From Patescibacteria group bacterium (GTDB taxonomy: Bacteria; Patescibacteriota; Microgenomatia; Levybacterales; UBA12049): a stretch of DNA of 64,000 bases. The position numbers and the translations under genes were made by a program. The notes below the pieces were generated by a model. That model ran no database searches, had not been told where the DNA came from, and saw nothing but the letters and a program-made list of their open reading frames with translations. The DNA lies in NCBI GenBank assembly GCA_023485865.1, contig JAMCZC010000002.1:1000-64999 (forward strand). Reading direction: 5' to 3'. How positions within the stretch are numbered: the first letter of the stretch is position 1; each line of letters begins with the position of its first letter. Shown here one piece after another: positions 1,997 to 60,762 of the stretch.

Positions 1997-3382
1997 TTAC
2001 ACAGTAAATTTGAATCCGCGGCCTTTTACCGTTTGGATATGGTTTGGGGTATTGGGGTCGTTTTCTATTTTTTTTCTAAGCCTGAAAATAAGCTGGTCAA
2101 GGGCCTGGTTGGTAACTCCTGCAGTTGACTGCATATTTTCCCAAACTGCATTTATAATTTCTTCTCTTTCAATTATTTTTCCGGCATTTACGATAAAAAA
2201 TTTTAAGAGCTTAAATTCAGACGACGTAAGCTTATCCGAAATAACTAAATTCCCCTTTTTAACCTCATTGGAATTTTGGTCAAAAACAATCTTTTCATTT
2301 TCCGCCGAAAGCTTATTTTTTTCTAAAGCATAGTCTTTTAAAAGCGGAATCGTTAATTTGTTTTTGTCGATTAAACCAACGTTTTCAAGATAAGAAATGT
2401 CCTGATTGGCAAAATTTAAAAGCGTTAATAAGTTTTGTTCGAAAGGGTTTAGGCAGTTCCAAATGCCAAAAAGAGCGCTTCTTACGGGTTTTTGTTTAAG
2501 AAAAAACTCGCCCAGCTCCGAGCTAGACGCTAATGGTTGATTTTTGATTATTGATTTTTGATTATTGATTGTTAGAATTGCCTCCAAACAATGCCTGGTT
2601 AAATTTCCATGTCCTCCGGTTAAGGAAAGAACTTTCCCAAGCGTTTTCTTATCTATTTTTTTGCCTGTTACCTTTTCAAGATATGCAATTCTAAAATCAA
2701 GACCCGGTTTATCTAAAATAGGCAGGTACACAATTTTTCCTGCCATAAATTCGTAAAAATCTCCAAAAAATATAGGTTCAAAAATATCCTCCAGAGGTCT
2801 GGTTGCAGAAAAAACAACGGAAAAGCGGTATTTTGCCCTGTTTCTTAAAACTCTTAAGTTAGCGAAAAAATCAGCGGTTAAAGCGGGAACATATTCTTCG
2901 AACCTGTCTAAAAGGAAAACAATCGCAAGCTCTTTTTCTATGGCCAAAAAATCAATTGCCCTTTTTAGCCCCTGAAATAAAATCAACTCATCATTTAATT
3001 CGATGCTCTCTCTAAAAATTTTATTAACCGCGTCGTATTCATTTTCCATTTTTCTGCCTCTTAAAGAATCTAAAAGCCCTAGGAATATAAATTTAGTTGC
3101 GTCAAAAAGCGGTTTTTTTCTTATTTCCGAAAAATTTAAAAGCACAAAATGAAACCATTTTTGGTTTTCACCTAAATGTTTTAAGCGCACATTTCGGTTA
3201 TAAGCCAAGAGCCCTAAAAGGTTAGATCTTCCTATTCCGGGGACGCCAATTATTTGGCAGGAATTGCCCTCTTTAACAAAAGACAGAATTTTTTCAATCT
3301 CAGGAAATCTCGTATCTTCCGGATACAAAGATTCAAAATGAGAGGAATCGATTGTTAAATTGTTAAATTGTTTCATCTTCAT
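1997..3382 (-). CDS. Transcriptional regulator: N-terminal P-loop ATPase domain fused to C-terminal OmpR/PhoB-type winged-helix DNA-binding domain
   Basis: 461 aa. Walker-A-like GVPGIGRSNLLGLL near the N-terminus (Arg in place of Lys). The C-terminal ~100 aa has the OmpR trans_reg_C signature (FKLLKFFIVNAGKIIEREEIINAVWE...QALDQLIFRLRKKIE...IQTVKGRGFKFTV). Contains an in-frame 15-nt-period tandem repeat at 2536..2571. Confidence 0.55.
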   Translation of the reverse strand: MKMKQFNNLTIDSSHFESLYPEDTRFPEIEKILSFVKEGNSCQIIGVPGIGRSNLLGLLAYNRNVRLKHLGENQKWFHFVLLNFSEIRKKPLFDATKFIFLGLLDSLRGRKMENEYDAVNKIFRESIELNDELILFQGLKRAIDFLAIEKELAIVFLLDRFEEYVPALTADFFANLRVLRNRAKYRFSVVFSATRPLEDIFEPIFFGDFYEFMAGKIVYLPILDKPGLDFRIAYLEKVTGKKIDKKTLGKVLSLTGGHGNLTRHCLEAILTINNQKSIIKNQPLASSSELGEFFLKQKPVRSALFGIWNCLNPFEQNLLTLLNFANQDISYLENVGLIDKNKLTIPLLKDYALEKNKLSAENEKIVFDQNSNEVKKGNLVISDKLTSSEFKLLKFFIVNAGKIIEREEIINAVWENMQSTAGVTNQALDQLIFRLRKKIENDPNTPNHIQTVKGRGFKFTV

Positions 3383-6900: not shown

Positions 6901-7679
6901 TTCAAGAGCAAGAGAGGGCGGTGGGCGCAGAGGCTAAAGCTGAAAGAATAGCTGGGAGAATTGAGCTCGACAGTTTTCTTGCAACAGCCGGTCTTGATGC
7001 GGATGAAATTGCTTTTGTAAGAAAACTTCAGAAGTTTGGTAAAGATAGAGCCGAACAACTTGCGATGGTTTCTTTCCCGCACATTCCCTTTCTGGAAGAC
7101 GTTCCTTTTGATAAGGCAGATTACATTAGTCTTGGCGCAGAAGTTTTTCCAAGACGAATCGGAAGAGATTTTAGCGGTTATGCAAAAGCAACAGAAGAAG
7201 GCGGAAATATTATCGGCCACCTTGAATTACCATACGAAAACTTTCTTGAAATAGTAGGAAAAGTAGAGGATAGCCTTTCGGGTCCGGAGGGTTCGATAGC
7301 TGCCCAAGATTTGGGCTCAACTTTTCTAAAAACATATATTGATCTTGCCAAACAATGGGGGATTACGCGTTTGCCGCTGGTTAAAGGGGTACGTGAGTTT
7401 AGGGGATTACCAACTTCCGGATTTCAGAAGATCTTCGGACGAGAAGCCCCCTCTTGGGGACCAACGGAGATAAACCATGAAGTTAATGTGGCGCTTGGTA
7501 AAGGACTGATAAGAAGGGAAATAATTCCTGGCGAAAAAGAGTCTCAGACGGATGAAATTTTGCATCACGCACGCGCTGCGTGGCTAAATGTTTTGAATGA
7601 GCAGGGGCCAAAAGGACTGATGTTTCTAATAATGACTGCTCTTTTTAAATTCTTCAAAGAGGTCACGAAAAGTAAGTAA
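3963..7679 (+). CDS. Large acidic hypothetical protein (1238 aa) with Pro/Gly/Glu-rich disordered N-terminal region
   Basis: Single long ORF with no competing frames. No signal peptide or TM segment is visible. Residues ~30-260 are low-complexity (PGGEGGNGNGDE, PPASPPGGDGGG) and locally GC-rich; the remainder looks globular. No domain recognised. The start could instead be the internal MPGEPGG. Confidence 0.6.
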   Translation: MTERGPRAIDLTNQANPHRLNVRGDIFMPGEPGGGETPPIHHPAAETSKKPSEPAESKPTSRYLPVTFERQQEVREAWMRRREEQERGGERITREQLETEEKLIRMGIPPISGGSGDEPEDSQGQPTETDAQAPERRTFKPSAEWQEIPRSVAIPPGATIRMDMESGKSYAKWDTPPETEIEYEFGAESAGDGGGQEPPVRGAGPPASPPGGDGGGNEPPAPPVTPPGGEGGNGNGDENPREEQEPANEGADAAHEPESPTSAADPISKALSRIPEDLTKDEKDFISENYGEDAEDLIKRATEQRRALKLYADQFREERFDRLFDPERSYYKLSEAIRMGEVSAVEAEELRMAIATSAVAERLRRQPPEERDEIRDLLERTKDGTPEAKLERRNGLKGWIERINPDYITVDPNFMRAVAEDPEAAEMFLDKIISKPFASPEDQYSLSFYAAINLSGFLTEVNAVSRQRHTDYVRKKEASLRFHEMNRTIISESGNLEAFLSISRSVTPQHIQTATEITGAAHMRHLIESAFKRLYAAKNQVEEHDFPEQIIERSIRQFYRDAGYELVVEPGENEGKWVYKGRDVIKSEFRDADNNKRPLEVWEIERAVAFGRNMSAAFYRLSELVSWSHVSPEAPEWLKSMPSETVVRNLGGLKMLQERFKYGQTKGGPQFVALLYDKLQKGFKDKSKDYNEKHEKDGERMITKIGKLSILTDILPTGFYKASGFDKGWRTIAAYLDTKVASITIPDSNIFPNLTKKDFPELDPKNFPDYKPEDVPGMVRKAIEELMGKIKGNETTLYRFLLSQELAAQLATAVSDKEATAAGVLTPKEDRPFNAKIQKILVEQALMPLLGYKYNPEGAKKRAKEKNPQEANWIGPWEYKGDAEAGDRMVDQINLSLGILIGNGSSSERVKTALWKKTASFLPLEVGQLLSEAGVRELIDDYDVHKAPNEKIQGEGEFLFSDEFERKLFRAEQSRIRAQVQEQERAVGAEAKAERIAGRIELDSFLATAGLDADEIAFVRKLQKFGKDRAEQLAMVSFPHIPFLEDVPFDKADYISLGAEVFPRRIGRDFSGYAKATEEGGNIIGHLELPYENFLEIVGKVEDSLSGPEGSIAAQDLGSTFLKTYIDLAKQWGITRLPLVKGVREFRGLPTSGFQKIFGREAPSWGPTEINHEVNVALGKGLIRREIIPGEKESQTDEILHHARAAWLNVLNEQGPKGLMFLIMTALFKFFKEVTKSK

Positions 7680-27079: not shown

Positions 27080-28111
27080 ATGTTTATGGATATTAATGCT
27101 CTTCTTTCCTTGATCTCCATATCTAGCTTAGGATTTAACTGGATTGATATTTTAATACTAATTGTTGTTATTTTTTATGGCTTCGAAGGTTACGCCCTCG
27201 GTTTTTACGTAGCTTTAGTAGATTTAATAAGTTTTATTGTTTCTTTTGCTTTCGGTCTTTTGTTTTACGCAGTTATAGGCGGGATTCTGGTTAAAGTTTT
27301 CTCGATGCCTTCCGGTTTTGCCAATGCGATAGGATTTTTTATGGTGGCATTTATTACAGAAATTATTATTAGCTACATTTTAAAACATCTTGTTTTAAGT
27401 GCGACATTTATTGCCGAGTTTGAAAATCAACCAGAGAATATTAAAATACTCAATAATTTCCTTGGCATTCTTCCGGCTGTTTTTTCCGGGCTTTTGCTTC
27501 TTTCTTTTATACTGACAATGATTATTGCTCTACCTGTTTCAACTTTTCTTAAACATTCCGTATCCTCTTCTAGAGTAGGAAACGTTTTGGTTACCAATAC
27601 CCAGGGGCTTGCAAAAGACTTAAACAGCGTTTTTGGCGGTGCGGTTAACGAAACTTTGGCTTTCCTAACGGTTGAACCAAAGAGCAACGAAGTGGTTAAT
27701 CTTAATTTTAAAACCAGTAGCTTTAGCGTCGACCAAGTTTCCGAAGAAAAAATGTTCACTATGGTAAATCGGGAAAGAACTTCCCGGGGAGTGTCCGCGC
27801 TTTTGTTGTGGGACAAGTTAACGGATGTTGGTAGGGCTCATTGTGAAGATATGCTAAAAAGAGGTTATTTTTCTCATTACACACCCGAAGGAATTTCTCC
27901 TTTTGACAGAATGGCTAAGGCTGATATTGAATTTACTTTTGCCGGGGAAAATCTTGCTCTGGCACCAAACACGGAATTGGCAATGCAGGGGTTTATGCAA
28001 AGCCCCGGGCACAGGGCAAATATTTTATCAGCAGATTTCCACAGGATCGGAATAGCGGCAATAGACGCCGGAGTTTACGGACAAATGTATTGCCAGGAAT
28101 TCTCTGACTAA
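27080..28111 (+). CDS. CvpA-family membrane domain fused to C-terminal CAP/SCP (YkwD-like) domain
   Basis: N-terminal ~170 aa with 4 TM helices of CvpA type. The C-terminal domain contains GYFSHYTPEG...SPGHRANIL...RIGIA, a CAP/SCP signature. Confidence 0.55.
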   Translation: MFMDINALLSLISISSLGFNWIDILILIVVIFYGFEGYALGFYVALVDLISFIVSFAFGLLFYAVIGGILVKVFSMPSGFANAIGFFMVAFITEIIISYILKHLVLSATFIAEFENQPENIKILNNFLGILPAVFSGLLLLSFILTMIIALPVSTFLKHSVSSSRVGNVLVTNTQGLAKDLNSVFGGAVNETLAFLTVEPKSNEVVNLNFKTSSFSVDQVSEEKMFTMVNRERTSRGVSALLLWDKLTDVGRAHCEDMLKRGYFSHYTPEGISPFDRMAKADIEFTFAGENLALAPNTELAMQGFMQSPGHRANILSADFHRIGIAAIDAGVYGQMYCQEFSD

Positions 28112-28114
28112 AAT

Positions 28115-28140
28115 AATGATAAATGATTAAGGATTAATGA
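28115..28140 (+). repeat. 26-nt conserved motif AATGATAAATGATTAAGGATTAATGA (copy 1 of 3; contains SD-ATG of pgk)
   Basis: Identical 26-mer at 60730..60755; close variant (24/26) at 41272..41297. Confidence 0.6.
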
Positions 28141-29177
28141 TTAGATTAAAAAAAATACAAGAAGCCGATGTTAAGAATAAAACGGTTCTTTTAAGAGCGG
28201 ATTTGGATATTCCTCTCGCGGGGGGGAAGATTGCAGACGATTTTCGTTTAATTACTTCTCTTGAAACTATCAATTATTTTTTAAAGCAAACAAAGACAAT
28301 AGTTATTATCGGTCACCTCGGACGTCCGGAAGAAGGAGATAAAAGTTTAAGTTTGAAAGTTGTGGCGAAGTGGTACGCCAAAAATTTCAAATTTCAAATT
28401 TCAAATTTCAAATTAAAGGATTTTACTGGATGGAAAATTGGAGAAAAGTTAATTCTTTTGGAAAATCTTAGATTCTTTCAGGGCGAAGAAAAAAATGATC
28501 AGGGTTTTTCTAAACAATTAGCCTCACTTGCCGATATTTATGTTAACGACGCTTTTGCTTCTTCGCATAGAGCGCATGCTTCAATAGTCAGTGTCACTAA
28601 ATATTTGCCTTCCTTTGCAGGATTAAGGCTTGAAAAAGAAGTCGAAGAACTTTCAAAAATTCTAAATGGCCCCAAACGGCCGCTGGTGGTGATAATAGGC
28701 GGGGCAAAAATCGAGACAAAACTTCCCCTGGTTGAAAAAATGCACCACTTTGCCGACTATGTTTTGGTGGGCGGGGAAATTGCGGAAAATGATAAAGTTC
28801 TTCTTAAAGTTCAACATGAAAAAATTACAGGCAGAAAATCAATTCTTCTGGTGGCCGATTCGAACGAAGATTTAAACGATATTACTTCCAAATCGGCTGA
28901 AAACTTTGTTCAGATAATTCAAAATGCAAAAACAATTGTTTGGAATGGTCCGATGGGTGTTACGGAAGAAAAAGAAAATCAAAACGGAACAAATATTTTG
29001 GCAGAAGGCATAGTCCAAACATCCGCGGATACAATAGTTGGGGGAGGAGACACACTGGCATTTTTAAAAGAAAAAAATCTGCTTGATAAATTTTCTTTTG
29101 TTTCAACAGGAGGCGGCGCAATGCTGGAATTTTTGGCAGATGAAAATCTCCCGGGCCTGGAAGTGTTGGATATTTAA
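28137..29177 (+). CDS. pgk: Phosphoglycerate kinase
   Basis: VLLRADLDIP..., GHLGRPEEG, and a C-terminal GGGDT-type motif (VGGGDTLAF). Carries an in-frame 7-nt-period repeat (28382..28413) encoding KNFKFQISNFKL. The 3' end (29115..29177) is duplicated downstream at 29767..29832. Confidence 0.9.
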   Translation: MIRLKKIQEADVKNKTVLLRADLDIPLAGGKIADDFRLITSLETINYFLKQTKTIVIIGHLGRPEEGDKSLSLKVVAKWYAKNFKFQISNFKLKDFTGWKIGEKLILLENLRFFQGEEKNDQGFSKQLASLADIYVNDAFASSHRAHASIVSVTKYLPSFAGLRLEKEVEELSKILNGPKRPLVVIIGGAKIETKLPLVEKMHHFADYVLVGGEIAENDKVLLKVQHEKITGRKSILLVADSNEDLNDITSKSAENFVQIIQNAKTIVWNGPMGVTEEKENQNGTNILAEGIVQTSADTIVGGGDTLAFLKEKNLLDKFSFVSTGGGAMLEFLADENLPGLEVLDI

Positions 29178-29197
29178 CTTTAATTTTTCGGGGGGTT

Positions 29198-29226
29198 GAC
29201 AATTTTGTAACTATTGTATATACTTT
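29198..29226 (+). promoter_or_regulatory. Consensus sigma70 promoter (TTGACA-17-TATACT) with flanking inverted repeat, for the relB-yafQ cassette
   Basis: TTGACAattttgtaactattgtaTATACT. An inverted repeat TTGTAAC...GTTACA brackets the -10 and is a candidate autoregulatory operator. Only ~8 nt from the -10 to the ATG (near-leaderless). Confidence 0.5.
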
Positions 29227-29234
29227 GGTTACAT

Positions 29235-29510
29235 ATGAGAACTGTAATTTATATTAAAACAGACAACGAAATAAAAAAGAACGCCCAGAAACTAGCCCTA
29301 GAGCTAGGGCTTAATCTAAGTGACGTAATTAATGCATCTCTTAGAAATTTTATAAGAACTCGAGAGGTCTATTTTTCTTCTATTCCTAAAATGACTTTAG
29401 AGCTTGAGAGAATTCTCGGGCCGATAGATGAAGACATAAAAAGAGGTAGGAATCTTTCCCGACAACTTTCTGATTCTTCTGAAGTAAATGATTACCTCAA
29501 TTCCTTATGA
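29235..29510 (+). CDS. RelB/DinJ-family antitoxin
   Basis: MRTVIYIKTDNEIKKNAQKLALELGLNLSDVINASLRNFI is the RelB/DinJ RHH pattern. 4-nt ATGA overlap with the downstream toxin. Confidence 0.7.
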   Translation: MRTVIYIKTDNEIKKNAQKLALELGLNLSDVINASLRNFIRTREVYFSSIPKMTLELERILGPIDEDIKRGRNLSRQLSDSSEVNDYLNSL

Positions 29511-29764
29511 TAGTTCGCGTTCATAAAAACTTTGAAAAACAATATAAGAAATTAAAAAAAACAGAGAAAGATAAATTTAAAGAGAGAATTAATATTTTTA
29601 TTACAGATGAATTCAATCCAATACTTAATAATCACCCGCTTAGAGGTAAATATTTAGGTTATAGAAGTATTAATGTGACAGGAGATCTTCGGGCAATATA
29701 TAAAAGAGAAGAAAATCTAACAATTTTTGTTGCAGTTAATTCGCACAGCAACCTATATCGATAA
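29507..29764 (+). CDS. RelE/YafQ-family mRNA-interferase toxin
   Basis: 85 aa, basic. Matches the YafQ/RelE pattern (…FKERINIFITDEF…LRGKYLGYRSINVTGDLRAIY…IFVAVNSHSNLY). Confidence 0.7.
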   Translation: MIVRVHKNFEKQYKKLKKTEKDKFKERINIFITDEFNPILNNHPLRGKYLGYRSINVTGDLRAIYKREENLTIFVAVNSHSNLYR

Positions 29765-29766
29765 TT

Positions 29767-29832
29767 GGCGCAATGCTTGAATTTTTAGCCGGCGAAAATC
29801 TCCCGGGCCTGGAAGTCTTGGAACAAAGCTAA
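29767..29832 (+). repeat. Diverged duplicate of the pgk 3' end (~85% identical to 29115..29177), right boundary of the TA cassette
   Basis: GGCGCAATGCTTGAATTTTTAGCCGGCGAAAATCTCCCGGGCCTGGAAGTCTTGGAACAAAGCTAA compared with GGCGCAATGCTGGAATTTTTGGCAGATGAAAATCTCCCGGGCCTGGAAGTGTTGGATATTTAA. The reverse-strand six-frame ORFs at both sites share the same peptide (…LPGPGDF…). Confidence 0.8.
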
Positions 29833-29878
29833 ATAAAAGCACACAATAAGATAAATAAAATAGATCTATTTTTGATAT

Positions 29879-29907
29879 CTTGACAAATAGATTTATTTTT
29901 GTTATTA
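29879..29907 (+). promoter_or_regulatory. sigma70-type promoter (TTGACA-17-TATTAT), near-leaderless, for the DGQHR gene
   Basis: TTGACAaatagatttatttttgtTATTATaattttgttATG. Confidence 0.45.
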
Positions 29908-29917
29908 TAATTTTGTT

Positions 29918-31054
29918 ATGCAAAAAGATAGTATAAGTTTCAAAATTCCAGCAATACGCCTTTTCCAAAGAGAGACAGAGGGGAAAGCAATTTACGTAGG
30001 AGTTATTAAGGCTTCAGATTTATCTTCTCATCCGCAAGAAAGATTTAGGATTGCCTATTTTGACAGAGAAAACAAAAATGCAGGTTATCAAAGAAGACTT
30101 CAGGATAATAAAGTCGAGAAACTTAAGGAATTTATACTTAAAGAGACTAAGACCCCATTGTTCCCAACTGCAATATTAGTTAATTCAAGAGAAATGTTAG
30201 ATTTTAAAGAAATCTCTAAGGGGGTAGGAACACTTCATGTAAATGAGCCACTTTTTGTGATTGATGGACAGCATCGTGTTACAGCGTGGAGAGCAATTGT
30301 GGATGAAACCGATCTTGCGGATAAATGGAAGGATTATGAATTTCCAATTGTACTAATGAGCGGTTTTAAAATCCTAGAAGAGATGGAGCAATTTTATGTG
30401 ATAAATTCTAGGCAAACGAAAATCAAAACAGATCTGGTTCACAGCTTGCTACTTGAGTTTGAGAAAAAAGATGAGACTAGAAATTTAGTTAAAGAAAAAG
30501 ACAAATGGATACCTAGGGCAGTAGTAATAACAGAAAATTTAAACAAATCTGGGGCATGGAAAGATAGAATTGGTTACGATTCAGATAGCGATTTAATGCG
30601 AAAGACAAGAGTTATTCAGGCCACGTCAGTTGTCGGAGCTTTAAAGCATTTATTTGTAGGAAATAAAAAGTTATTTGACATAGAAAATCCTAAAATTGAC
30701 GAGTGGATAAAATTTCTAAATGATTATTGGGAAATTATTGCAGATATTTATCCAAATGCAGTTAACAATGCAAACGATTATTCGTTAATGAAGACGGTTG
30801 GAATAAATGTAATGCATATTTTACTAGCCGATAAGTCTTACGATTTAGGCTTAGGCATAGAACAAAAAGAGGAACTCTTAAAAAAAATGAGAGAAACTTT
30901 AGTTCGTGCTGCGATTAGCGATATCCCTGAGGATTTTTGGAGATCTGATGTTTCTAAACAAACAAGAGAGAGAGGAAGATATGCCGGAGCTTTTTCATCC
31001 TCTGCGGGACATAAGAGACTAGCCACAGCAATATTCATAAACAGATTTGATTAA
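29918..31054 (+). CDS. DGQHR-domain protein (DndB-like, ParB/sulfiredoxin-fold nuclease superfamily)
   Basis: 378 aa containing the eponymous motif FVIDGQHRVTAW, with the surrounding pattern of DndB/DGQHR proteins. No dndCDE or other partner genes nearby. Confidence 0.6.
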   Translation: MQKDSISFKIPAIRLFQRETEGKAIYVGVIKASDLSSHPQERFRIAYFDRENKNAGYQRRLQDNKVEKLKEFILKETKTPLFPTAILVNSREMLDFKEISKGVGTLHVNEPLFVIDGQHRVTAWRAIVDETDLADKWKDYEFPIVLMSGFKILEEMEQFYVINSRQTKIKTDLVHSLLLEFEKKDETRNLVKEKDKWIPRAVVITENLNKSGAWKDRIGYDSDSDLMRKTRVIQATSVVGALKHLFVGNKKLFDIENPKIDEWIKFLNDYWEIIADIYPNAVNNANDYSLMKTVGINVMHILLADKSYDLGLGIEQKEELLKKMRETLVRAAISDIPEDFWRSDVSKQTRERGRYAGAFSSSAGHKRLATAIFINRFD

Positions 31055-31099
31055 TCTCCTCTTGCTCATTTTTTAATTCCTCTGTTATACTAAATTACT

Positions 31100-32158
31100 A
31101 TGATTAAAGTCGCGATTAATGGATACGGAAGAATTGGCAGGTTGGCACATCGGGTTGTTTTGGAAAGATATACTCAAGACATTGATATAGTTGCTATAAA
31201 TGCGGGCTCCTCAACGGATATTAAGGGTTGGATGTATTTGTTAAAATACGATACTACCTACGGGCCGATACTTGATAGGCCTATTTCTTATCAGGAAGCC
31301 GAGGGGAATTCGGTAACGAGCAAACTTTTGGGTTATCTTCTTGTCGGAAACGCAAAAATCCCGGTTTACTCCGAAAAAGACCCGACACTTTTACCTTGGA
31401 AAGATTTAAACGTTGACGTTGTAATAGAATCAACCGGTCATTTTACAACGGAAGAAAAATTAAAAACTCATCTTCAGGCGGGTGCAAAAGCGGCAGTTTT
31501 ATCCGCTCCGGTAAAAGAAGGGGACATTAATACTTACGTTTTATCGGTTAACGCCCAAAACTACAACGGAGAAAATTTAATCAGTAATGCCTCTTGTACT
31601 ACCAATTGCATTGCTCCAGTTGCAAAAATTATGGTAAATCATTTTGGGGTTGAAAAGGCAATGATGACAACTGTCCATGGATATACATCTGATCAAAAAC
31701 TTCAAGACGGAGGACACAAAGATTATAGACGCGCCAGGGCGGCCGCTTTGAATATTGTCCCAACTTCAACCGGCGCGACAATTGCGGCGGCAAAAGCGGT
31801 GCCGGAACTTGCGGGACTTTTTTCTGGTCTTGCGATTAGGGTCCCTGTTCCTGCGGGTTCGCTTTCGGATTTTACCTTCATTTTAAAAAAAGAAACTACA
31901 AAAGAAGAAGTAAATAGTATTTTTAAACAGGAAGCGCAAAGCCAGAATTTTGAAGGAATACTGATGGTAACGGAAGATCCTTTGGTTTCTAGTGATATAA
32001 TCGGAAATCCATACTCGGCTATTGTAGATTTATCTTTAACCCAAGTTTTGGGAAATTTAGTAAAGGTAATTGCCTGGTACGATAATGAATACGGATATGC
32101 TAATAGGCTGGTTGAGGAAACCATAATGATTGGCAGTAAGCTTACAAGTACAATATGA
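31100..32158 (+). CDS. gap: Glyceraldehyde-3-phosphate dehydrogenase
   Basis: MIKVAINGYGRIGR, SNASCTTNCIAP active site, WYDNEYGY. Confidence 0.9.
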   Translation: MIKVAINGYGRIGRLAHRVVLERYTQDIDIVAINAGSSTDIKGWMYLLKYDTTYGPILDRPISYQEAEGNSVTSKLLGYLLVGNAKIPVYSEKDPTLLPWKDLNVDVVIESTGHFTTEEKLKTHLQAGAKAAVLSAPVKEGDINTYVLSVNAQNYNGENLISNASCTTNCIAPVAKIMVNHFGVEKAMMTTVHGYTSDQKLQDGGHKDYRRARAAALNIVPTSTGATIAAAKAVPELAGLFSGLAIRVPVPAGSLSDFTFILKKETTKEEVNSIFKQEAQSQNFEGILMVTEDPLVSSDIIGNPYSAIVDLSLTQVLGNLVKVIAWYDNEYGYANRLVEETIMIGSKLTSTI

Positions 32159-32742
32159 AAACTCCCGTTGAACTTCCCGGCATTAGAAATATTACTATCT
32201 CCGGCAGAATCGGAGCAGGAGCAACTACCTTGGCTAAAAAACTTTCCGAAAAACTAAACTGGCCTTTGCTTGAGGGAGGGGAAATATTTGCAAAAATCCA
32301 CAAAGAGTTAGATATCAGCCAAGTAGATGTTTTACAAAGGCCGGATAGTTTCGATCTTAAATTTGAAGCACAAATAAAAAAAACACTTGCCAAAGAAAAG
32401 CATCAAATCATCCAAAGCCATTTGGCAGGATTTGACGCCCAGGGAATTGAGGGCGTTTTTAAAATTTTGATTATTTGCCGCGATGAAGAAGGCGATGACA
32501 AGGCTGATATTAGGATAGACAGGCTTATGAATAGAGATGGTATTTCTCTTGAGCAGGCAAAACATGAAATTCTAGAAAGAGAAAAAGCTAATATAGAAAA
32601 ATTCAGAAAACTTTATGCTAAAAACGACCCGAATTGGGTTTATTGGAATAAAAAATATTACGATTTTATAGTAAATACATATTCGCATAATCAGGAAGAA
32701 ACTCTAGATCTGGTCTTACGGGGGATAGGATATGGAAAATAG
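32155..32742 (+). CDS. Cytidylate-kinase-like P-loop NMP kinase
   Basis: ITISGRIGAGATTLAKKL P-loop at the N-terminus; size and layout as (d)CMP kinase family. 4-nt overlap with gap. Confidence 0.55.
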   Translation: MKTPVELPGIRNITISGRIGAGATTLAKKLSEKLNWPLLEGGEIFAKIHKELDISQVDVLQRPDSFDLKFEAQIKKTLAKEKHQIIQSHLAGFDAQGIEGVFKILIICRDEEGDDKADIRIDRLMNRDGISLEQAKHEILEREKANIEKFRKLYAKNDPNWVYWNKKYYDFIVNTYSHNQEETLDLVLRGIGYGK

Positions 32743-41358: not shown

Positions 41359-41431
41359 GGAGCTGTAGTTCATCGGTCAGAACGCGACTCTTATAAAGTC
41401 GATGCAGATGGTTCAACTCCATCCAGCTCCA
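41359..41431 (+). tRNA. tRNA with anticodon UAU (tRNA-Ile decoding AUA)
   Basis: Acceptor GGAGCTG/CAGCTCC. D-stem GTTC/GAAC. Anticodon stem-loop CGACT-CTTATAA-AGTCG with U33 and anticodon T-A-T. T-arm GATGG-TTCAACT-CCATC. Discriminator A. No CCA. Confidence 0.7.
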
Positions 41432-41523
41432 CAAGCAGATGTTCTTGCCTGCCCTTCCGAAGTTTTAACGAAGGAGGGGTTCGAACCCAAGCAGACGCAC
41501 CGCGTCAAACGCTGCTTCGCCTA

Positions 41524-42390
41524 TTAGAGTTCGGTAAGCGCGGCGCCTTCTTTGCTTTTTCCAACCTCTCCGACGTATTGAAGATATCTTTCGGTTGTTG
41601 AAAGTCTTTTGTGTCCTAAAACTTTGGACAAAACAATTAATGAAACGCCGTGTTTTAAGTGGTGGGCGACAAAAGTGTGCCTCAAATCGTTAACTTTCGC
41701 TTCTCTTATTTCTGCTAAGCGGAAATATCTTTCAACAGCCGTTCTAATATTTCTTATCAAAAACGGCTTGCCGGATTTTGTTATGAACAAATGGTCCTCT
41801 TTAACGCTTGGCCGAATATTCATGTACCTAGTTAAAGCTTCCCTGGCGCTTTTATTAAGGGGAACAATTCTGTCTTCATGCTTTTCAAAAGGAGCTATGT
41901 GCAGGCTGTCTTTGGTAACATCCGAAAGTCTTAAGTTTGAAAGCTCGCCGATTCTAATCCCCGTTTGTAAAAGAAGCTCTATAATTGCAAACATTCTCGG
42001 GTCGTTTTTTGCGGCGTCTCTTAATGCCCTATATTCTGTTGGGGTTAAGATTCGCGGGGGCGCCAGCTGATATTTGGGGTGGGATACCAAAAGGGAGGGG
42101 TCATCCGTAACGTATTCGTTTACTTTTAAAAATCGATAAAAGGTTCTGGTTGAATTTATTTTTCTTGAAATTGATTTAGGTGTATAGTTATCCTTGCTCA
42201 TTTTGGCTAGAAAAGCTTCGATGTCTTCCTTAGATACCTCGTGGACCTCGTTTCTTTGCAGTTCTTCCAGGAACGAAAGTAATTGGTCAATATCTTTTCC
42301 GTACGCAATTACGGTGGAGTTTGATTTATTATTTTCCTTTAAATATTTTTTAAATTCTTCGTGGGCATCGCGAAGCTTAATCGGCTTCAT
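41524..42390 (-). CDS. Tyrosine site-specific recombinase (XerC/XerD-like)
   Basis: 288 aa. N-terminal SAM-like core-binding domain. C-terminal catalytic residues within LRHTFVAHHLKHGVSLIVLSKVLGHKRLSTTERYLQY (H-x-x-R ... Y). Its size suits Xer better than a phage integrase. Lies ~90 nt from the tRNA 3' end. Confidence 0.7.
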   Translation of the reverse strand: MKPIKLRDAHEEFKKYLKENNKSNSTVIAYGKDIDQLLSFLEELQRNEVHEVSKEDIEAFLAKMSKDNYTPKSISRKINSTRTFYRFLKVNEYVTDDPSLLVSHPKYQLAPPRILTPTEYRALRDAAKNDPRMFAIIELLLQTGIRIGELSNLRLSDVTKDSLHIAPFEKHEDRIVPLNKSAREALTRYMNIRPSVKEDHLFITKSGKPFLIRNIRTAVERYFRLAEIREAKVNDLRHTFVAHHLKHGVSLIVLSKVLGHKRLSTTERYLQYVGEVGKSKEGAALTEL

Positions 42391-45846: not shown

Positions 45847-47082
45847 ATGAGGCCGACTTTCAAAATAATCAAAAAAGACAAGAAATCAAAAGCCAGAGCT
45901 GGTATTATCAAAACCCCCCATGGTGAGATCGAAACGCCGATTTTTATTCCGGTCGGGACCCAAGGGACGGTAAAAGCAGTTTCACCGCGTGACCTAAAAG
46001 AAATGGGGGCGCAAATAGTTTTGGCAAATACCTATCATTTACACTTAAGGCCGGGAGAAGACCTTATTCAAAAGTTCGGAGGTTTGGCAAAGTTCATGGG
46101 GTGGGAAGACGGTCCCCACTTCGCCAAGACTTCGAGGGGCAGGCCGACGATGACAGACTCCGGAGGTTTTCAGGTTTTTTCTTTAGGGGTAGGAAAGATG
46201 GGCGGAGGGGTGAAATTCCTCAAAGAGGAAATATCAAATTTAAAATATCAAATTTCAAATATAGAAGAGGCAAGGCCAAGACTTAATAAAATTACTGAAG
46301 AAGGGGTGACTTTTCAGTCGCATATTGACGGGTCAAGCCATAAACTGACTCCGGAAAGCTCAATCAAAATTCAGGAAAAGCTCGGAGCCGATTTAATTGT
46401 TGCTTTTGACGATTTGGAGTCGCCCAAATACTCTTTTGAAGAAACAAAAAAATCACTCGAACTTACAAACAGATGGGAGTTGCGTTCGAAAAAAGCTCAC
46501 AAAAGGAAAGATCAATTGCTGTACGGCGTAACTCACGGAGGGCCGTTTAGAGACTTAAGAGAACTTTCCGCCAAATTTGTTGACGAGAACTTTGACGCTA
46601 TTGGTATGGGCGGAGCACACTTGTCAAAGAAAAATTTATATGAGGTAGTTAGTTGGACAACGGATATTGTTTCGGATGAAAAGCCGAGGCATCTTTTGGG
46701 AATTGGAGAAGTTGATGATATTTTTGAAATTATTCAAAGGGGCGTTGATACTTTTGACTGCGTAATTCCAACAAGAATTGGAAGAACTGGATTTTTCTTT
46801 GTTTTCCCGCCCAAAGGCACAGTCAAAAACCGCTTTAGAACAGACATAGACAAGCCAAATTTTAGAACCGACCCAAAACCTTTGGATTTAAATTGCAAAT
46901 GTTATGCTTGTCAGAATTTCAGTAGAGCTTACATCCATCACTTATTTCGAAGCAAGGAACTATTGTCGTATCATCTTTTAAGCCTTCACAACGTCCGTTT
47001 TCTCATTAACCTTACAAAACAAATTAGGAAAGCGATTTTAGAAGATAAGTTTCAAAACCTAAAAAAAGACTGGATTGGTTGA
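45847..47082 (+). CDS. tgt: Queuine tRNA-ribosyltransferase (tRNA-guanine transglycosylase)
   Basis: TPIFIPVGTQGTVK, DSGGFQVFSLG. Zn site CKCYACQNFSRAYIHHLF. Carries an in-frame repeat-derived insertion (46229..46263, KYQISNIEE). The 3' ~90 nt is duplicated downstream at 48709..48796. Confidence 0.85.
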   Translation: MRPTFKIIKKDKKSKARAGIIKTPHGEIETPIFIPVGTQGTVKAVSPRDLKEMGAQIVLANTYHLHLRPGEDLIQKFGGLAKFMGWEDGPHFAKTSRGRPTMTDSGGFQVFSLGVGKMGGGVKFLKEEISNLKYQISNIEEARPRLNKITEEGVTFQSHIDGSSHKLTPESSIKIQEKLGADLIVAFDDLESPKYSFEETKKSLELTNRWELRSKKAHKRKDQLLYGVTHGGPFRDLRELSAKFVDENFDAIGMGGAHLSKKNLYEVVSWTTDIVSDEKPRHLLGIGEVDDIFEIIQRGVDTFDCVIPTRIGRTGFFFVFPPKGTVKNRFRTDIDKPNFRTDPKPLDLNCKCYACQNFSRAYIHHLFRSKELLSYHLLSLHNVRFLINLTKQIRKAILEDKFQNLKKDWIG

Positions 47083-47107
47083 TATTACAATATAGATTTG
47101 ATACTAT

Positions 47108-47719
47108 TTGAGTATGTCAGAGGCCAAAGATGTTTCAGGATCTTATTCAGAAACAGAAGCCCCTACCATAAAAAGATTTTCTAAAGAAGCACTTTCGGCG
47201 CTGGAAAGAAATGGTTTTTGGTTAGGAGAATTAACAGGACAAAGCATAGCAGGTTATGAAAAAGCAGGGAGAAGATTTTATACTAAAACAATTGATAGAT
47301 ACCCTGAGATTAAAGATTTGCTTTCAAGAGCCTCTGAGGTAGCAATAGGAGATCCTCTTAATAAACCATACGATTATATTCTTCCTGATTATAACTGGAA
47401 GAGTTTTAGTGATTATTTTGGGATGATTGATGAATATAATAAAGATTTGCAGGAAAAGATTCCGGACGTAGAGGCTGTAATAGGTGAAGCTCCGGATTAT
47501 GTTGAACTTCTTTGTTCTTTTAGGGATGAAACAGGATTAATACTACTTGATGGTTTGGCATATGCCGCAACAAAAACAAGAGTTGGTAAGAGTACAGTAT
47601 CTGTAGGTCATCAAGATTTTACACCTGATTATGAAATGATCATTCATGCGAATGAAATGCCGGCAGATTATAAATATTTTCTTTCTATGTATTGCGTGCC
47701 CCTTGTTTTTCCTAAGTAA
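47108..47719 (+). CDS. hypothetical protein (cargo of the tgt-associated insertion)
   Basis: 203 aa, no recognised motif. Lies between the two copies of the tgt 3' end. Confidence 0.45.
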   Translation: MSMSEAKDVSGSYSETEAPTIKRFSKEALSALERNGFWLGELTGQSIAGYEKAGRRFYTKTIDRYPEIKDLLSRASEVAIGDPLNKPYDYILPDYNWKSFSDYFGMIDEYNKDLQEKIPDVEAVIGEAPDYVELLCSFRDETGLILLDGLAYAATKTRVGKSTVSVGHQDFTPDYEMIIHANEMPADYKYFLSMYCVPLVFPK

Positions 47720-47899
47720 ATATTATTAATAAAATTTAACTTCTGTGATAATATAGAGGAAATGAGTAAAGTTGTTTTTTCGGGGGTTCAGCTAAGCGAA
47801 ATCTTAAGAGTCAAATAAATGATATGCTAAAAATATGCCTATTGTTTTTTCGACCCACTCCAAAAATCAGCTCAAAAGGCGGCTAAAGAGAAAAATAAT

Positions 47900-48106
47900 A
47901 TGAAAGTTCAATACGCCCCTAAAATAGACGCAATTTATATAGAATTAGCAAAAGGAACATACAAAAATACACGTAAAGTTTCCGATGCTATCTTAGTGGA
48001 TGAAGATAAAAAGGGAAAAGTTTTGGGGATTGAAATTTTAGATGCGACAAAAAACGTTAACGCTTTTAATCCTAAAAATCCAAAACTTTTTATAAGCCCC
48101 CAATAA
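47900..48106 (+). CDS. DUF2283-family small protein
   Basis: 68 aa. MKVQYAPKIDAIYIELAKGTYKNTRKVSDAILVDEDKKGKVLGIEILDA matches the DUF2283 pattern as I remember it, often the small partner in two-gene TA-like pairs. Confidence 0.5.
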   Translation: MKVQYAPKIDAIYIELAKGTYKNTRKVSDAILVDEDKKGKVLGIEILDATKNVNAFNPKNPKLFISPQ

Positions 48107-48138
48107 TCACAAAACTGCTATAATTGCCTCATAGGAAA

Positions 48139-48624
48139 ATGAAGACTTTAAGGATTAAGATTATACTTACTTGTTGGGAAAAAGAACTCGTATGGCGCGT
48201 GATTGAGATTCCTGAAAACAAAACGCTTCATCAGCTGCATCTTGCAATTCAGAAAGCATTTGGCTGGTACAACGATCATTTATATTCATTTTTCATGAGC
48301 AACAACAGGATGGATAGAAAGGGAGAATACACGAGTCCGGTTGACATTGAAGAAGCAGGAGAGGATGCGTTATCGGCAGCAGAAACAAAGTTAAAAGATT
48401 TGAACTTACAGTTAAAGAAAAAATTTCTCTACCTCTATGATTTTGGTGATAATTTAGATCATGAAGTAGAAGTGGTAGGCTTTGGTGAAACGGACGACTT
48501 CCATAAATATCCTCAACTCATAGGCGCATTCGGCGCAGCGCCTGAACAGTACGCAATCCGGCGAGCAGGTATGGAAGAGACAGAGAATGAGAAGTCCCCA
48601 AAATATACAGAAGAGAAAAATTAG
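48139..48624 (+). CDS. pRiA4b ORF-3-like family protein
   Basis: LHQLHLAIQKAFGWYNDHLYSFFM...YLYDFGDNLDHEV. The W..DHLY.F core matches my memory of this family. Start moved to MKTLRIK. Confidence 0.45.
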   Translation: MKTLRIKIILTCWEKELVWRVIEIPENKTLHQLHLAIQKAFGWYNDHLYSFFMSNNRMDRKGEYTSPVDIEEAGEDALSAAETKLKDLNLQLKKKFLYLYDFGDNLDHEVEVVGFGETDDFHKYPQLIGAFGAAPEQYAIRRAGMEETENEKSPKYTEEKN

Positions 48625-48708
48625 TTCTAAACTACAGCACTACATAGTACTATACTTTAGTGAGGTATATCAAAAATTCTCGGGTTAAATCATAATGTTT
48701 ATTTTTTG

Positions 48709-48796
48709 ATTAACCTTACAAAACAAATAAGAAATTCAATTTTGGAAGATAAATTTCAGAAAATGAAAAAAGAATGGCTGGTGTGATAATATAGGG
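48709..48796 (+). repeat. Diverged duplicate (~80% identity) of the tgt 3' end, right boundary of the 1.6-kb insertion
   Basis: ATTAACCTTACAAAACAAATAAGAAATTCAATTTTGGAAGATAAATTTCAGAAAATGAAAAAAGAATGGCTGGTGTGATAATATAG compared with copy 47005..47096. It keeps the in-frame stop at the corresponding position. Confidence 0.75.
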
Positions 48797-60717: not shown

Positions 60718-60729
60718 AGGCCAATAATT

Positions 60730-60755
60730 AATGATAAATGATTAAGGATTAATGA
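60730..60755 (+). repeat. 26-nt motif AATGATAAATGATTAAGGATTAATGA (copy identical to 28115..28140)
   Basis: Exact 26/26 match, located just upstream of the ligase gene start. Confidence 0.6.
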
Positions 60756-60762
60756 ATAAAAT

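What the first reader, a model, noticed from the sequence alone, without database searches (positions are those of the whole stretch)
29115..29832. relB/yafQ toxin-antitoxin cassette inserted at the 3' end of pgk, bounded by a duplicated pgk terminus
The last ~63 nt of pgk, including its stop (29115..29177), recur as a ~85%-identical copy at 29767..29832. Between the copies sit only a consensus TTGACA-17-TATACT promoter with an operator-like inverted repeat and a relB/yafQ-type TA pair. The cassette promoter is near-leaderless, unlike the SD-dependent host genes. Integrative elements that target tRNA or protein gene 3' ends leave the same signature: a surrogate 3' end supplied by the element and the displaced original downstream. 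Here the element is only ~650 bp and encodes no integrase. It also splits the otherwise conserved pgk-gap glycolytic pair.
Basis: seen in the sequence. Interest (0 to 1): 0.65.

Follow-up and report, generated by a model that had tools for sequence, protein, structure and literature searches.

The report
Toxin-antitoxin cassette splitting pgk's terminus
A 0.65-kb toxin-antitoxin operon with no recombinase of its own sits inside the last 21 codons of the glycolytic gene pgk of an uncultured Patescibacteria (CPR) bacterium; the gene stays whole because its terminus is present twice, and related genomes show the same site empty, filled with the same cassette, or filled with a different one.

Summary
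Window 29115-29170 and 29767-29822 are an ungapped 56-nt direct repeat (50/56 identical, 23-nt exact core) and nothing like it arises in shuffles. The second copy is an out-of-use pgk terminus (AMLEFLAGENLPGLEVLEQS*). Between the copies lie only a TTGACA-17-TATACT promoter and an overlapping RelB/DinJ-like plus RelE/YafQ-family gene pair.

Related Levybacteria-like genomes settle the main question:
- Five have pgk directly followed by gap (empty site).
- Six lineages, window included, carry this cassette plus remnant.
- Two carry an unrelated TrpR-like gene bounded by a remnant that starts at the same pgk nucleotide.
- In L003 the remnant is contiguous with the spacer that follows intact pgk in the empty-site relative L012, so there the remnant is the displaced original end.

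Differences between the working end and the remnant fall mainly at third codon positions, and the region is mosaic.

The signature is not confined to pgk. It recurs in this window at tgt, and around homologous TA cassettes at ksgA and a NUDIX gene in other CPR genomes.

The most likely mechanism is an integrase-less cassette moved by recombination across the duplicated terminus; this is inferred, not shown. It is a new variant of known repeat-flanked islands. The claimed contrast with SD-dependent host genes fails.

The parts
28137..29177 (+). pgk (phosphoglycerate kinase), full length, 346 aa
   Evidence: Pfam PGK, E = 1.6e-94. Orthologues sit in the same cvpA-pgk-gap-cmk synteny in the related loci.
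29115..29170 (+). Working copy of the duplicated pgk terminus (left direct repeat). It encodes G-AMLEFLADENLPGLEVL and is followed by a 2-codon tail (D I) and the stop at 29175-29177.
29196..29224 (+). Cassette promoter, TTGACA-17-TATACT. The inverted hexamers TGTAAC (29206-29211) and GTTACA (29228-29233) bracket the -10 box and are a candidate operator. The ATG lies 10 nt after the -10 box, so the mRNA is near-leaderless.
   Evidence: (11/12 consensus match) and the sequence. The 37-nt block is 92-100% conserved among six pgk-linked cassettes and is recognisable in non-pgk contexts.
29235..29510 (+). Antitoxin gene, 91 aa, ribbon-helix-helix RelB/DinJ-like
   Evidence: NCBIfam RelB_DinJ 35 bits, below the 45.65 cut-off. 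Pfam RelB 16.9 bits, below the 22.4 cut-off. Weak match to CopG. It lies upstream of the toxin gene and overlaps it by ATGA.
29507..29764 (+). Toxin gene, 85 aa, RelE/StbE superfamily, YafQ-like mRNA interferase
   Evidence: Pfam YafQ_toxin 44.9 bits against a cut-off of 30. NCBIfam RelE_StbE 45.6 bits against 27.9. E. coli YafQ structures match at E = 3e-5.
29767..29832 (+). Remnant pgk terminus (right direct repeat, 29767-29822) plus its own tail and stop codon. It reads AMLEFLAGENLPGLEVLEQS* and starts 2 nt after the toxin stop codon.
   Evidence: Homologous remnants follow the cassette in L001, L017, L022, L028 and L029.
29880..31054 (+). A separate insertion between the remnant and gap: a promoter (TTGACA-17-TATTAT, 29880-29908) and a solitary DGQHR-domain (DndB/DpdB-like) gene, 29918-31054. 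It is not bounded by repeats.
   Evidence: no flanking repeat.
31100..32158 (+). gap (glyceraldehyde-3-phosphate dehydrogenase), the native downstream neighbour of pgk
   Evidence: It is adjacent to pgk in the empty-site relatives.

Best explanation
The feature is a 652-bp insertion into the last 21 codons of pgk in a Levybacteria-like CPR bacterium.

What it contains. The inserted block brings a working copy of the pgk terminus, so PGK stays full length. It also carries a self-contained type II toxin-antitoxin operon: its own sigma-70-type promoter with a candidate operator, a RelB/DinJ-like antitoxin, and a RelE/YafQ-like ribosome-dependent mRNA endonuclease coupled to it by an ATGA overlap. 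The former pgk terminus is left untranslated immediately after the toxin stop codon, still joined to the native downstream DNA.

How it behaves (shown). The cassette has no recombinase. Across relatives it behaves as a present/absent/replaceable module at a hot spot between pgk and gap.

How it moves (inferred). Recombination across the duplicated terminus moves it. On the cassette's right side the remnant offers a stretch of conserved coding sequence that can pair with the intact pgk end of a recipient lacking the cassette. The pgk body pairs on the left. Incoming DNA, as linear transforming DNA or as a circle excised between the repeats, is then integrated by host recombination functions. 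This recreates the duplication and leaves the recipient's own terminus as a fresh remnant. Recombination between the two repeats would delete the cassette and restore a single hybrid terminus.

What keeps it there (inferred from the known biology of type II TA systems). Loss of the labile antitoxin frees the toxin, so the TA pair would penalise deletion.

The event that first created the duplication is unresolved. The confidence given (0.55) is for the whole statement: the structural and comparative part is well supported, the recombination mechanism much less so.
For: Structure
- The repeat, promoter and overlapping TA genes are as described.
- The toxin passes the family cut-offs and matches YafQ structures.

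Polymorphism at the site
- Five loci are empty.
- Six lineages carry TA plus remnant: the window, L001, L017, L022/L018, L028 and L029-31.
- L003 and L015 carry a TrpR-like cassette. Its remnant starts at the same pgk position, GGCGCAATGCT.
- L001 and L003 are 96% nt identical in cvpA yet carry different cassettes. Their pgk sequences diverge sharply from about 25 nt before the repeat.

The remnant is the displaced original end
- The L003 remnant and its spacer match the L012 pgk end and spacer.
- In L028 the remnant is followed by the gap promoter at native spacing.

The two copies look like two functional alleles
- Differences by codon position (1st/2nd/3rd) are 0/1/6 in the window, 4/4/10 in L001, 6/2/12 in L003 and 2/3/9 in L015. 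That is 37 of 59 at third positions. In-place decay of a non-coding copy should leave a smaller third-position share.

Recombination inside and around the repeats
- L017 has TA 99% identical to L022 but a pgk end 92% like L028 and only 68% like L022.
- The L017 and L022 remnants share an identical, degraded left part (TTCATCACTTAAATTTTTA) and differ in the right part.

Generality
- In this window the tgt terminus (46986-47087) recurs at 48690-48791 around 1.6 kb of cargo: 73/96 nt identical, codon-position differences 5/2/16.
- Homologous TA cassettes are bracketed by repeats of the ksgA end (36/42 nt, L035), of a NUDIX gene end (20/20 nt, L099) and of a terminator (L037). Each scores above every one of 500 shuffles.

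Other points
- The inserted block has lower G+C (30-35%) than pgk (36-38%) and gap (about 40-42%).
- There is precedent for an integrase-less island flanked by imperfect direct repeats that excises and integrates using host functions (PMC3191183, PMC5426353).
Against: - No excised circle, hybrid empty site or read-level heterogeneity was seen. Four other read sets give the identical arrangement.
- The repeats are short (56 nt, 89% identical, 23-nt exact core), which is near the lower limit for RecA-type recombination.
- That two unrelated cassettes share exactly the same left boundary is what a site-specific recombinase would give. Homologous recombination predicts it less naturally.
- In L099 the repeat is an exact 20-mer with no diverged homology beyond it. 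That looks more like a target-site duplication or an att core than like an allelic gene end.
- Six of ten genomic contexts of this TA family show no flanking repeat.
- The working pgk tails of different TA-bearing lineages are not recognisably related, so it is not shown for the TA cassette that the cassette carries the surrogate end. The tails do look related for the TrpR-like cassette (L003 versus L015).
- TA function, repression and toxicity are untested.
Confidence: 0.55

Rival explanations
1. The cassette is the decayed stump of a site-specific integrative element (a CIME). A tyrosine- or serine-integrase element whose attachment site is the pgk 3' end integrated, supplying a replacement gene end. 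Later deletions removed everything except the addictive TA operon and the two att sites. The stump can still be moved in trans by the integrase of a related element.
For: - The architecture is the classical one: direct repeats at a gene's 3' end, a restored ORF, the original end displaced, and empty sites in relatives.
- Two unrelated cargos share the same left repeat boundary, as expected from one crossover site.
- The repeat length differs between target genes (20, about 26, 42 and 56-102 nt), as att cores differ between element families.
- TA modules are plausible last survivors of decay.
- CIMEs are defined as elements that have lost their integration and transfer genes but retain attL and attR (PMC5704250).
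- A Xer-like tyrosine recombinase is encoded 12 kb away.
Against: - No integrase-bearing element was found at the pgk end in any of about 25 distinct pgk loci. No viral contig carries a pgk end or pgk.
- In three independent contexts the cargo ends 0-23 nt from the right repeat. That is improbably tidy for random decay.
- Divergence between L001 and L003 begins about 25 nt upstream of the repeat boundary rather than at it.
- Mosaic breakpoints lie at several positions.
- The repeat has no inverted-arm or hairpin architecture.
Confidence: 0.25
2. The repeats are long target-site duplications made at a one-off illegitimate insertion, for example by staggered breaks with fill-in, by replication template switching, or by a transposase acting in trans that makes long variable duplications. 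The arrangement was then inherited vertically and spread only by ordinary flanking homologous recombination.
For: - The repeat length varies from 20 to 102 nt between targets.
- The L099 repeat is an exact 20-mer with sharp edges, and the working NUDIX ORF simply reads into the cassette promoter to reach a new stop codon.
- In L035 the ksgA stop codon likewise lies inside the cassette's -35 box.
- No recombinase is present in the cassette.
Against: - The two copies differ mostly at third codon positions: 37/59 at pgk loci and 16/23 at tgt. A non-coding copy decaying in place should show a flatter distribution.
- All remnants keep an open PGK-like reading frame across lineages whose housekeeping genes are only about 70% nt identical.
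- Two different cargos share one boundary.
- No terminal inverted repeats were found at the cassette ends.
Confidence: 0.12
3. The repeat is a chance match, an assembly chimera, or the start of an unrelated gene.
For: None beyond the a priori possibility. MAG assemblies can collapse or duplicate repeats.
Against: - The shuffles rule out chance.
- The same arrangement is assembled identically from four other read sets.
- It is present, with sequence divergence, in five other lineages.
- The second copy has the pgk reading frame and a stop codon, and no other ORF covers it.
Confidence: 0.01

Closest known systems
CIMEs (cis-mobilizable elements) and integrase-type islands inserted in the 3' ends of genes (definition in PMC5704250; the ICESt1/ICESt3 example at the 3' end of fda is from my own knowledge)
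   Same: Direct repeats of a gene's 3' end bound the element. The target ORF is kept intact by element-borne sequence, and the original end is displaced downstream. No integration or transfer genes lie inside. Related genomes have empty sites.
   Different: No parental ICE, IME or prophage with an integrase was found at this site. The element is only 0.65 kb, a single operon. The mosaic breakpoints and codon-position pattern point to homologous exchange. The same signature occurs at several unrelated genes with different repeat lengths.
Microcin H47 genomic island of E. coli (PMC3191183, PMC5426353)
   Same: A small island flanked by extensive, imperfect direct repeats that encodes no recombinase. 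Excision gives hybrid sites formed in segments of identity between the repeats, and mobility depends on host-provided functions.
   Different: The H47 island is 13 kb in E. coli. As far as I read, its repeats were not described as a duplicated gene terminus. Its excision and integration were shown experimentally, whereas here they are only inferred.
DinJ-YafQ and RelBE type II toxin-antitoxin systems
   Same: An upstream ribbon-helix-helix antitoxin gene overlaps a roughly 85-aa RelE-fold toxin gene. The toxin passes the Pfam YafQ_toxin and NCBIfam RelE_StbE cut-offs. Residues aligned with E. coli YafQ His50, Asp67 and His87 are kept (alignment; residue numbering from memory).
   Different: The toxin falls below the NCBIfam YafQ-specific cut-off (43.6 against 87.25 bits). 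The position aligned with YafQ His63 is Asn. The antitoxin is below both RelB model cut-offs. Activity is untested.
Integron gene cassettes, which include TA cassettes in chromosomal integrons (own knowledge)
   Same: Compact cassettes are inserted at one site. The recombination-site-like repeat starts right after the last stop codon, and TA cargo carries its own promoter.
   Different: The repeat does not fold like an attC site (z-scores +0.5 to +1.4). There is no intI or attI next to the site. The repeat is the host gene's own coding end.

Membership tests
Type II TA, RelE/YafQ toxin family | The toxin matches the family profile above the curated cut-off | tested here: met
   Pfam YafQ_toxin 44.9 bits (cut-off 30). 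NCBIfam RelE_StbE 45.6 bits (cut-off 27.9). The YafQ-specific model TIGR00053 scores 43.6, below its cut-off of 87.25.
Type II TA, RelE/YafQ toxin family | A small antitoxin gene lies immediately upstream in the same operon and encodes a DNA-binding (RHH) N-terminus | tested here: inconclusive
   The gene order and the ATGA overlap are met. RelB_DinJ scores 35 bits (cut-off 45.65) and Pfam RelB 16.9 (cut-off 22.4). The CopG-like RHH match has E = 0.15.
Type II TA, RelE/YafQ toxin family | Catalytic residues of YafQ are conserved | tested here: inconclusive
   In the alignment to 4ML2/4Q2U, His in 'nHPL', Asp in 'tgD' and His in 'sHsnlY' are kept. The position of YafQ His63 is Asn. Residue numbering is from memory.
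Type II TA, RelE/YafQ toxin family | The toxin arrests growth and the antitoxin neutralises it and represses the promoter | not testable with these tools
   This needs expression experiments.
Integrase-type integrative element / genomic island | Direct repeats (attL/attR) flank the element at the 3' end of a gene, and the ORF is restored | tested here: met
Integrase-type integrative element / genomic island | Related genomes have an empty site with a single att copy | tested here: met
   L004, L009, L012, L014 and L016.
Integrase-type integrative element / genomic island | An integrase or recombinase is encoded within the element | tested here: not met
   Only two ORFs, the antitoxin and the toxin, lie between the repeats. 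The nearest tyrosine recombinase is Xer-like and 12 kb away.
CIME (cis-mobilizable element) | attL and attR are retained and the integration and transfer genes are lost | tested here: met
   Met on structure. Definition from PMC5704250.
CIME (cis-mobilizable element) | It derives from, or is mobilised by, a related ICE or IME with the same att specificity | tested here: not met
   No such element occurs at the pgk end in about 25 distinct loci or in viral contigs. Sampling was limited, so absence is not proven.
Integron cassette | An attC site: an imperfect palindrome that folds as a single-stranded hairpin | tested here: not met
   Both strands of both repeat copies fold no better than shuffles (z = +0.47 to +1.38).
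Integron cassette | An adjacent intI gene and attI site | tested here: not met
   The upstream genes are pgk, cvpA/CAP and a PBP gene.
IS / MITE-type transposable element | Terminal inverted repeats and a short target-site duplication of fixed length | tested here: not met
   There is no inverted repeat at the cassette ends. The flanking repeats measure 20, 26, 42, 56 and 102 nt at different targets.
Integrase-less repeat-flanked island (H47 type) | Imperfect direct repeats flank the island and no recombinase lies inside | tested here: met
   PMC3191183.
Integrase-less repeat-flanked island (H47 type) | Excision and integration through segments of identity in the repeats, using host functions | not testable with these tools
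   Only indirect signs: mosaic repeats. No circle or hybrid junction was observed.

The most novel reading that the evidence does not exclude
CPR/Patescibacteria genomes may host a previously undescribed class of recombinase-less 'terminus-duplicating' cassettes. These would be small accessory modules (TA pairs, regulators and others) that enter the last codons of housekeeping genes such as pgk, tgt, ksgA and a NUDIX gene. Each would carry or create a second copy of the gene's terminus. The conserved duplicated coding end would then serve as the homology arm, or attachment site, for excision, horizontal spread into diverged relatives and cargo swapping. That would amount to a general route of gene gain in extremely compact genomes, with the TA cargo protecting the insertion from deletion between the repeats.
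Probability: 0.3. Interest if true: 0.7.

Novelty: new variant of a known kind. Interest (0 to 1): 0.5.

Why it matters
CPR bacteria have tiny, tightly packed genomes, and little is known about how they gain and lose genes. This locus gives a clean natural example. One housekeeping-gene terminus appears in four states among relatives: empty, TA cassette, TrpR-like cassette, and other cargo without a repeat. The sequence scars show that a foreign or allelic gene end replaced the original one.

The same scar recurs at tgt in this window, and around homologous TA cassettes at ksgA and a NUDIX gene elsewhere. That suggests a recurrent process rather than an accident. If it is general, it offers:
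- a simple sequence signature (a gene terminus repeated downstream, in frame, with its own stop codon) for finding recently acquired cargo in uncultured genomes;
- a testable case of mobility without an element-encoded recombinase;
- a concrete setting for the idea that TA modules stabilise insertions against deletion between repeats.

Tried and rejected
- Phage or plasmid carrier. A degenerate pgk-end pattern in viral contigs gave two chance hits in unrelated proteins. The TA promoter/operator pattern gave 35 hits, none with the TA genes except one partial relB at a contig edge. pgk, as a single protein and as an alignment, found nothing in viral contigs.
- Integron attC or structured RNA. 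Folding was no better than shuffles, and there were no Rfam matches in 28000-32500.
- A third pgk-end copy after the DGQHR gene, or repeats flanking that gene. None found. The 19-nt inverted match of the repeat start inside the DGQHR gene (I6) is within the range of chance pairs in that list, so I did not pursue it.
- Population heterogeneity. Four other assemblies with the identical toxin are 100% identical across the locus. Raw reads could not be examined.
- A micro-ORF in the remnant. An in-frame ATG exists in the window, L001, L003 and L015 but is lost in the L017/L022/L028/L029 group, so I rejected it as a conserved feature.
- Shared words between the pgk and ksgA targets (GCGCAAT, CCCGGGCC). 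These are not conserved among pgk ends, so I treated them as coincidence.
- A role for the Xer-like recombinase (a dif/IMEX-type module). Not pursued further.
- A retro-copy (RNA-mediated) origin. I considered it because repeat lengths vary. It is unsupported, because the cassette includes its own promoter.
- More contexts for the ksgA, NUDIX and TrpR-like cassettes could not be fetched.
Full report
**1. The observation**

The stretch 29115-29170, the end of pgk, recurs at 29767-29822. The match is 56 nt, ungapped, 50/56 identical, at a spacing of 652 nt. The 40 nt on either side of the two copies are unrelated, 7/40 each. A 23-nt exact core is found twice in the window and never in 100 dinucleotide-preserving shuffles. 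The local alignment scores 82 against a shuffle maximum of 24.

After the repeat the copies differ. pgk ends with D-I-stop; the second copy ends with E-Q-S-stop at 29830-32. The second copy reads AMLEFLAGENLPGLEVLEQS* in the pgk frame, and no ORF of at least 40 aa covers it on the + strand.

Between the copies are:
- a TTGACA-17-TATACT promoter, 29196-29224, matching 11/12 consensus positions;
- inverted hexamers TGTAAC and GTTACA bracketing the -10 box;
- a 91-aa gene (29235-29510) overlapping an 85-aa gene (29507-29764) by ATGA.

**2. The genes**

- pgk, gap, a cvpA/CAP-domain gene and a cytidylate-kinase-like gene are clear.
- The 85-aa protein passes Pfam YafQ_toxin (44.9 bits, cut-off 30) and NCBIfam RelE_StbE (45.6 bits, cut-off 27.9). 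It matches E. coli YafQ structures at E = 3e-5.
- The 91-aa protein is RelB/DinJ-like but falls below the curated cut-offs.
- A 378-aa DGQHR-domain (DndB/DpdB-like) gene with its own strong promoter lies between the remnant and gap. It has no flanking repeat.

**3. Organism and relatives**

pgk-based scans returned Patescibacteria/Levybacteria-type contigs with the synteny PBP (opposite strand), cvpA, pgk, gap, cmk. The states downstream of pgk are:

| State | Loci |
|---|---|
| Empty site, pgk stop to gap start 16-77 nt, one pgk end | L004, L009, L012, L014, L016 |
| This TA cassette plus a pgk-end remnant | window, L001, L017, L022/L018, L028, L029-31 |
| A 147-aa TrpR/YerC-like gene with its own promoter plus a pgk-end remnant | L003, L015 |
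| Other cargo, no detectable remnant | L002, L005, L008/L019/L021, L011 |

Supporting calls: 10-12, 17-21, 26, 27, 29, 31, 33, 34.

L012 and L014, both empty, are among the closest relatives of the window; gap is 85% and 81% nt identical. L001 (TA) and L003 (TrpR-like) are 96% identical in cvpA yet carry different cassettes. Turnover at this site is therefore fast relative to sequence divergence.

**4. Which copy is the original?**

In L003 the remnant is followed by TTATTGATGGATTTTTTTTATTAAGTTATACTAA. The same spacer follows the intact pgk stop codon in the empty-site relative L012. In L028 the remnant is followed, at native distance, by the gap promoter and start. In those loci the remnant is therefore the displaced original terminus, and the terminus now in use came in with the insertion; I take the window's remnant to be the same.

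For the TrpR-like cassette, the last codons, stop codon and following 70 nt are conserved between L003 and L015 although their hosts are distant. This fits a cassette-borne surrogate end. For the TA cassette, the working tails differ between lineages, so this point is not shown.

Both cassette types have a remnant that begins at the same pgk position, GGCGCAATGCT, the G-A-M-L codons.

**5. How the two copies differ**

Working end versus own remnant, differences by codon position (1st/2nd/3rd):

| Locus | 1st | 2nd | 3rd |
|---|---|---|---|
| window | 0 | 1 | 6 |
| L001 | 4 | 4 | 10 |
| L003 | 6 | 2 | 12 |
| L015 | 2 | 3 | 9 |

In total, 37 of 59 differences are at third positions. All remnants keep an open PGK-like frame. 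A non-coding copy decaying in place should show a flatter distribution. The pattern fits two termini that each evolved as part of a working pgk gene, that is, an allelic or foreign end meeting a resident one.

**6. Mosaicism**

Segment-wise identities are discordant:

| Pair | pgk body | pgk end | relB | yafQ | remnant |
|---|---|---|---|---|---|
| L017 vs L022 | 86% | 68% | 99% | 99% | 74% |
| L017 vs L028 | n/a | 92% | 83% | 81% | n/a |

The remnants of L017, L022, L028 and L029 share an identical, degraded left part (TTCATCACTTAAATTTTTA). The right part of L017 differs from the others.

The pgk genes of L001 and L003 alternate between about 94% and about 63% identity. They diverge sharply from about 25 nt before the repeat.

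TA genes are often more similar between lineages than the flanking housekeeping genes. For the window versus L017: cvpA 67%, pgk 69%, gap 75%, TA 80%.

These are the marks of repeated homologous exchange with breakpoints in the conserved promoter and in the repeats.

**7. The signature is not confined to pgk**

(a) In this window the last 32 codons of tgt (46986-47087) recur at 48690-48791. Identity is 73/96 nt, the copy is in frame with its own stop codon, the left edge is sharp, and the codon-position differences are 5/2/16. About 1.6 kb of cargo lies between, including a PRiA4_ORF3-family gene, and trpS follows. These two are the only high-complexity direct repeats in the 64 kb.

(b) The toxin family is widespread in CPR: 699 homologues were found. 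I examined ten distinct genomic contexts, and four have significant flanking direct repeats of the local upstream sequence:
- pgk;
- ksgA in L035, 36/42 nt; the remnant reads SEDLRLENWACLIKSVVS*;
- a NUDIX gene in L099, 20/20 nt; the working ORF reads through the cassette's -35 box to a new stop codon, WFLEDWKILTDI* against the remnant's WFLEDWKVL*;
- a terminator hairpin in L037.

Each scores above all 500 shuffles. The other six contexts have no repeat.

**8. Mechanism**

Shown:
- a repeat-bounded insertion with no recombinase of its own;
- empty, occupied and alternatively occupied sites;
- a displaced original terminus;
- mosaic repeats.

Inferred: the cassette is moved by recombination across the duplicated terminus using host functions. 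The remnant gives the cassette a conserved coding homology arm on its right. It can pair with the intact gene end of a recipient lacking the cassette, while the gene body pairs on the left. Integration recreates the duplication and turns the recipient's own end into a fresh remnant. This would explain three things: the third-position bias, the hybrid remnants, and the survival of recognisable remnants across deep lineages. Recombination between the repeats would delete the cassette, and the TA pair would penalise that loss.

A precedent exists. The 13-kb H47 island of E. coli is flanked by imperfect direct repeats, encodes no recombinase, and excises and integrates through segments of identity using host functions, even without RecA (PMC3191183, PMC5426353).

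The main rival is a decayed integrase element, a CIME (definition in PMC5704250). The shared boundary of the two cargos favours it. Against it, I found no integrase element at any pgk end and no phage carrier, although sampling was limited. The exact 20-mer in L099 keeps a target-duplication model alive. Integron, IS/MITE and chance or artefact readings fail direct tests.

**9.

The claimed contrast with SD-dependent host genes is not supported. Only 8 of 56 ORFs have an SD-like motif. Nineteen of 56, including gap, cvpA and the PBP gene, have a -10-like hexamer close to the start codon. The operator-like inverted repeat is present, but only its TAAC...GTTA core is conserved among homologues. 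The inserted block has lower G+C, 30-35%, than pgk (36-38%) and gap (about 40-42%).

**10. Verdict**

The finding is confirmed and its core interpretation is supported. The TA pair itself is ordinary. The interest lies elsewhere: a miniature insertion module without a recombinase that duplicates a gene terminus, the swapping of cargo at one boundary, and the recurrence of the same scar at other housekeeping genes in CPR genomes.

I classify it as a new variant of known repeat-flanked islands (CIME or H47 type), with interest 0.5. The mechanism is inferred, and read-level and experimental tests are needed.

Noticed in passing
window 46986-47087 and 48690-48791 (cargo 47083-48689): A second duplicated gene terminus in the same window. 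The last 32 codons of tgt, with the stop codon, recur 1.7 kb downstream: 73/96 nt identical, in frame, reading HNVYFLINLTKQIRNSILEDKFQKMKKEWLV*. The differences fall mostly at third codon positions (5/2/16). The cargo between the copies is a 203-aa ORF with no Pfam match, a 68-aa ORF and a PRiA4_ORF3-family gene; trpS follows. An internal stretch (47742-47770) resembles the trpS promoter and start region that follows the remnant, so the island may hold two cassettes.
   Followed up: partly
L035 2572-2613 / 3282-3323; L099 2156-2175 / 2772-2791; L037 (terminator copies ending 6 nt before the -35 box and starting 64 nt after the toxin stop): Homologues of this TA cassette in other CPR genomes are bracketed by direct repeats of the 3' end of ksgA (36/42 nt), of a NUDIX gene (20/20 nt) or of an upstream terminator. 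In L035 and L099 the working host ORF ends inside the cassette's promoter. Six other contexts have no repeat.
   Followed up: partly
window 29880-31054: A solitary DGQHR-domain gene (DndB/DpdB-like: NCBIfam DGQHR 100 bits, PADLOC DpdB 2e-18) with its own TTGACA-17-TATTAT promoter. No other dnd or dpd genes lie beside it. It sits between the pgk remnant and gap and has no flanking repeat.
   Followed up: partly
window 28375-28416 (inside pgk); similar motifs at 10208, 45716, 46222, 53366, 61053: An (AAATTTC)n-type low-complexity repeat lies inside the pgk coding sequence, encoding FKFQISNFK. Related repeats are scattered through the window. Three of four independent assemblies of this organism start their contig at 28386-28387, within this repeat.
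   Followed up: no
window 28111-28157 and 60726-60772: A 47-nt AT-rich stretch upstream of pgk (AATAATGATAAATGATTAAGGATTAATGA...) recurs at 83% identity upstream of the gene that starts at 60763. It may be a shared leader or ribosome-binding region.
   Followed up: no
window 41524-42390 (-), next to tRNA-Ile 41359-41432: A 288-aa Xer-like tyrosine recombinase (XerC/XerD models about 172 bits, below the equivalog cut-offs) lies beside a tRNA-Ile(tat) gene. It was the only recombinase among the window ORFs I scanned, which were not all of them. No link to the pgk or tgt repeats was established.
   Followed up: partly
whole window (56 ORFs): Few genes have an SD-like motif (8/56). Many have a -10-like hexamer 5-20 nt before the start codon (19/56). 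Near-leaderless expression therefore looks common in this genome.
   Followed up: partly
L001 vs L003, locus coordinates 6300-7084: pgk is a mosaic between two genomes that are 96% identical in the neighbouring cvpA gene. Blocks of about 94% identity alternate with blocks of 61-76%.
   Followed up: partly
L022 1190-1260 vs L029 3800-4297: L022 looks like L029 after a deletion that fused the end of the pgk remnant to the last 17 codons of the downstream HAD-hydrolase gene (YYKDYLKLRNQIEQYLG*). This shows deletional erosion at the same hot spot.
   Followed up: no
L003 7735-7779 and L002 7690-7730: In these two relatives the gap gene has an extra 5' leader of about 45 nt with a conserved hairpin-like sequence (GGCACTTCGATTTCGCTTGAGTGTC), which the window lacks.
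   Followed up: no
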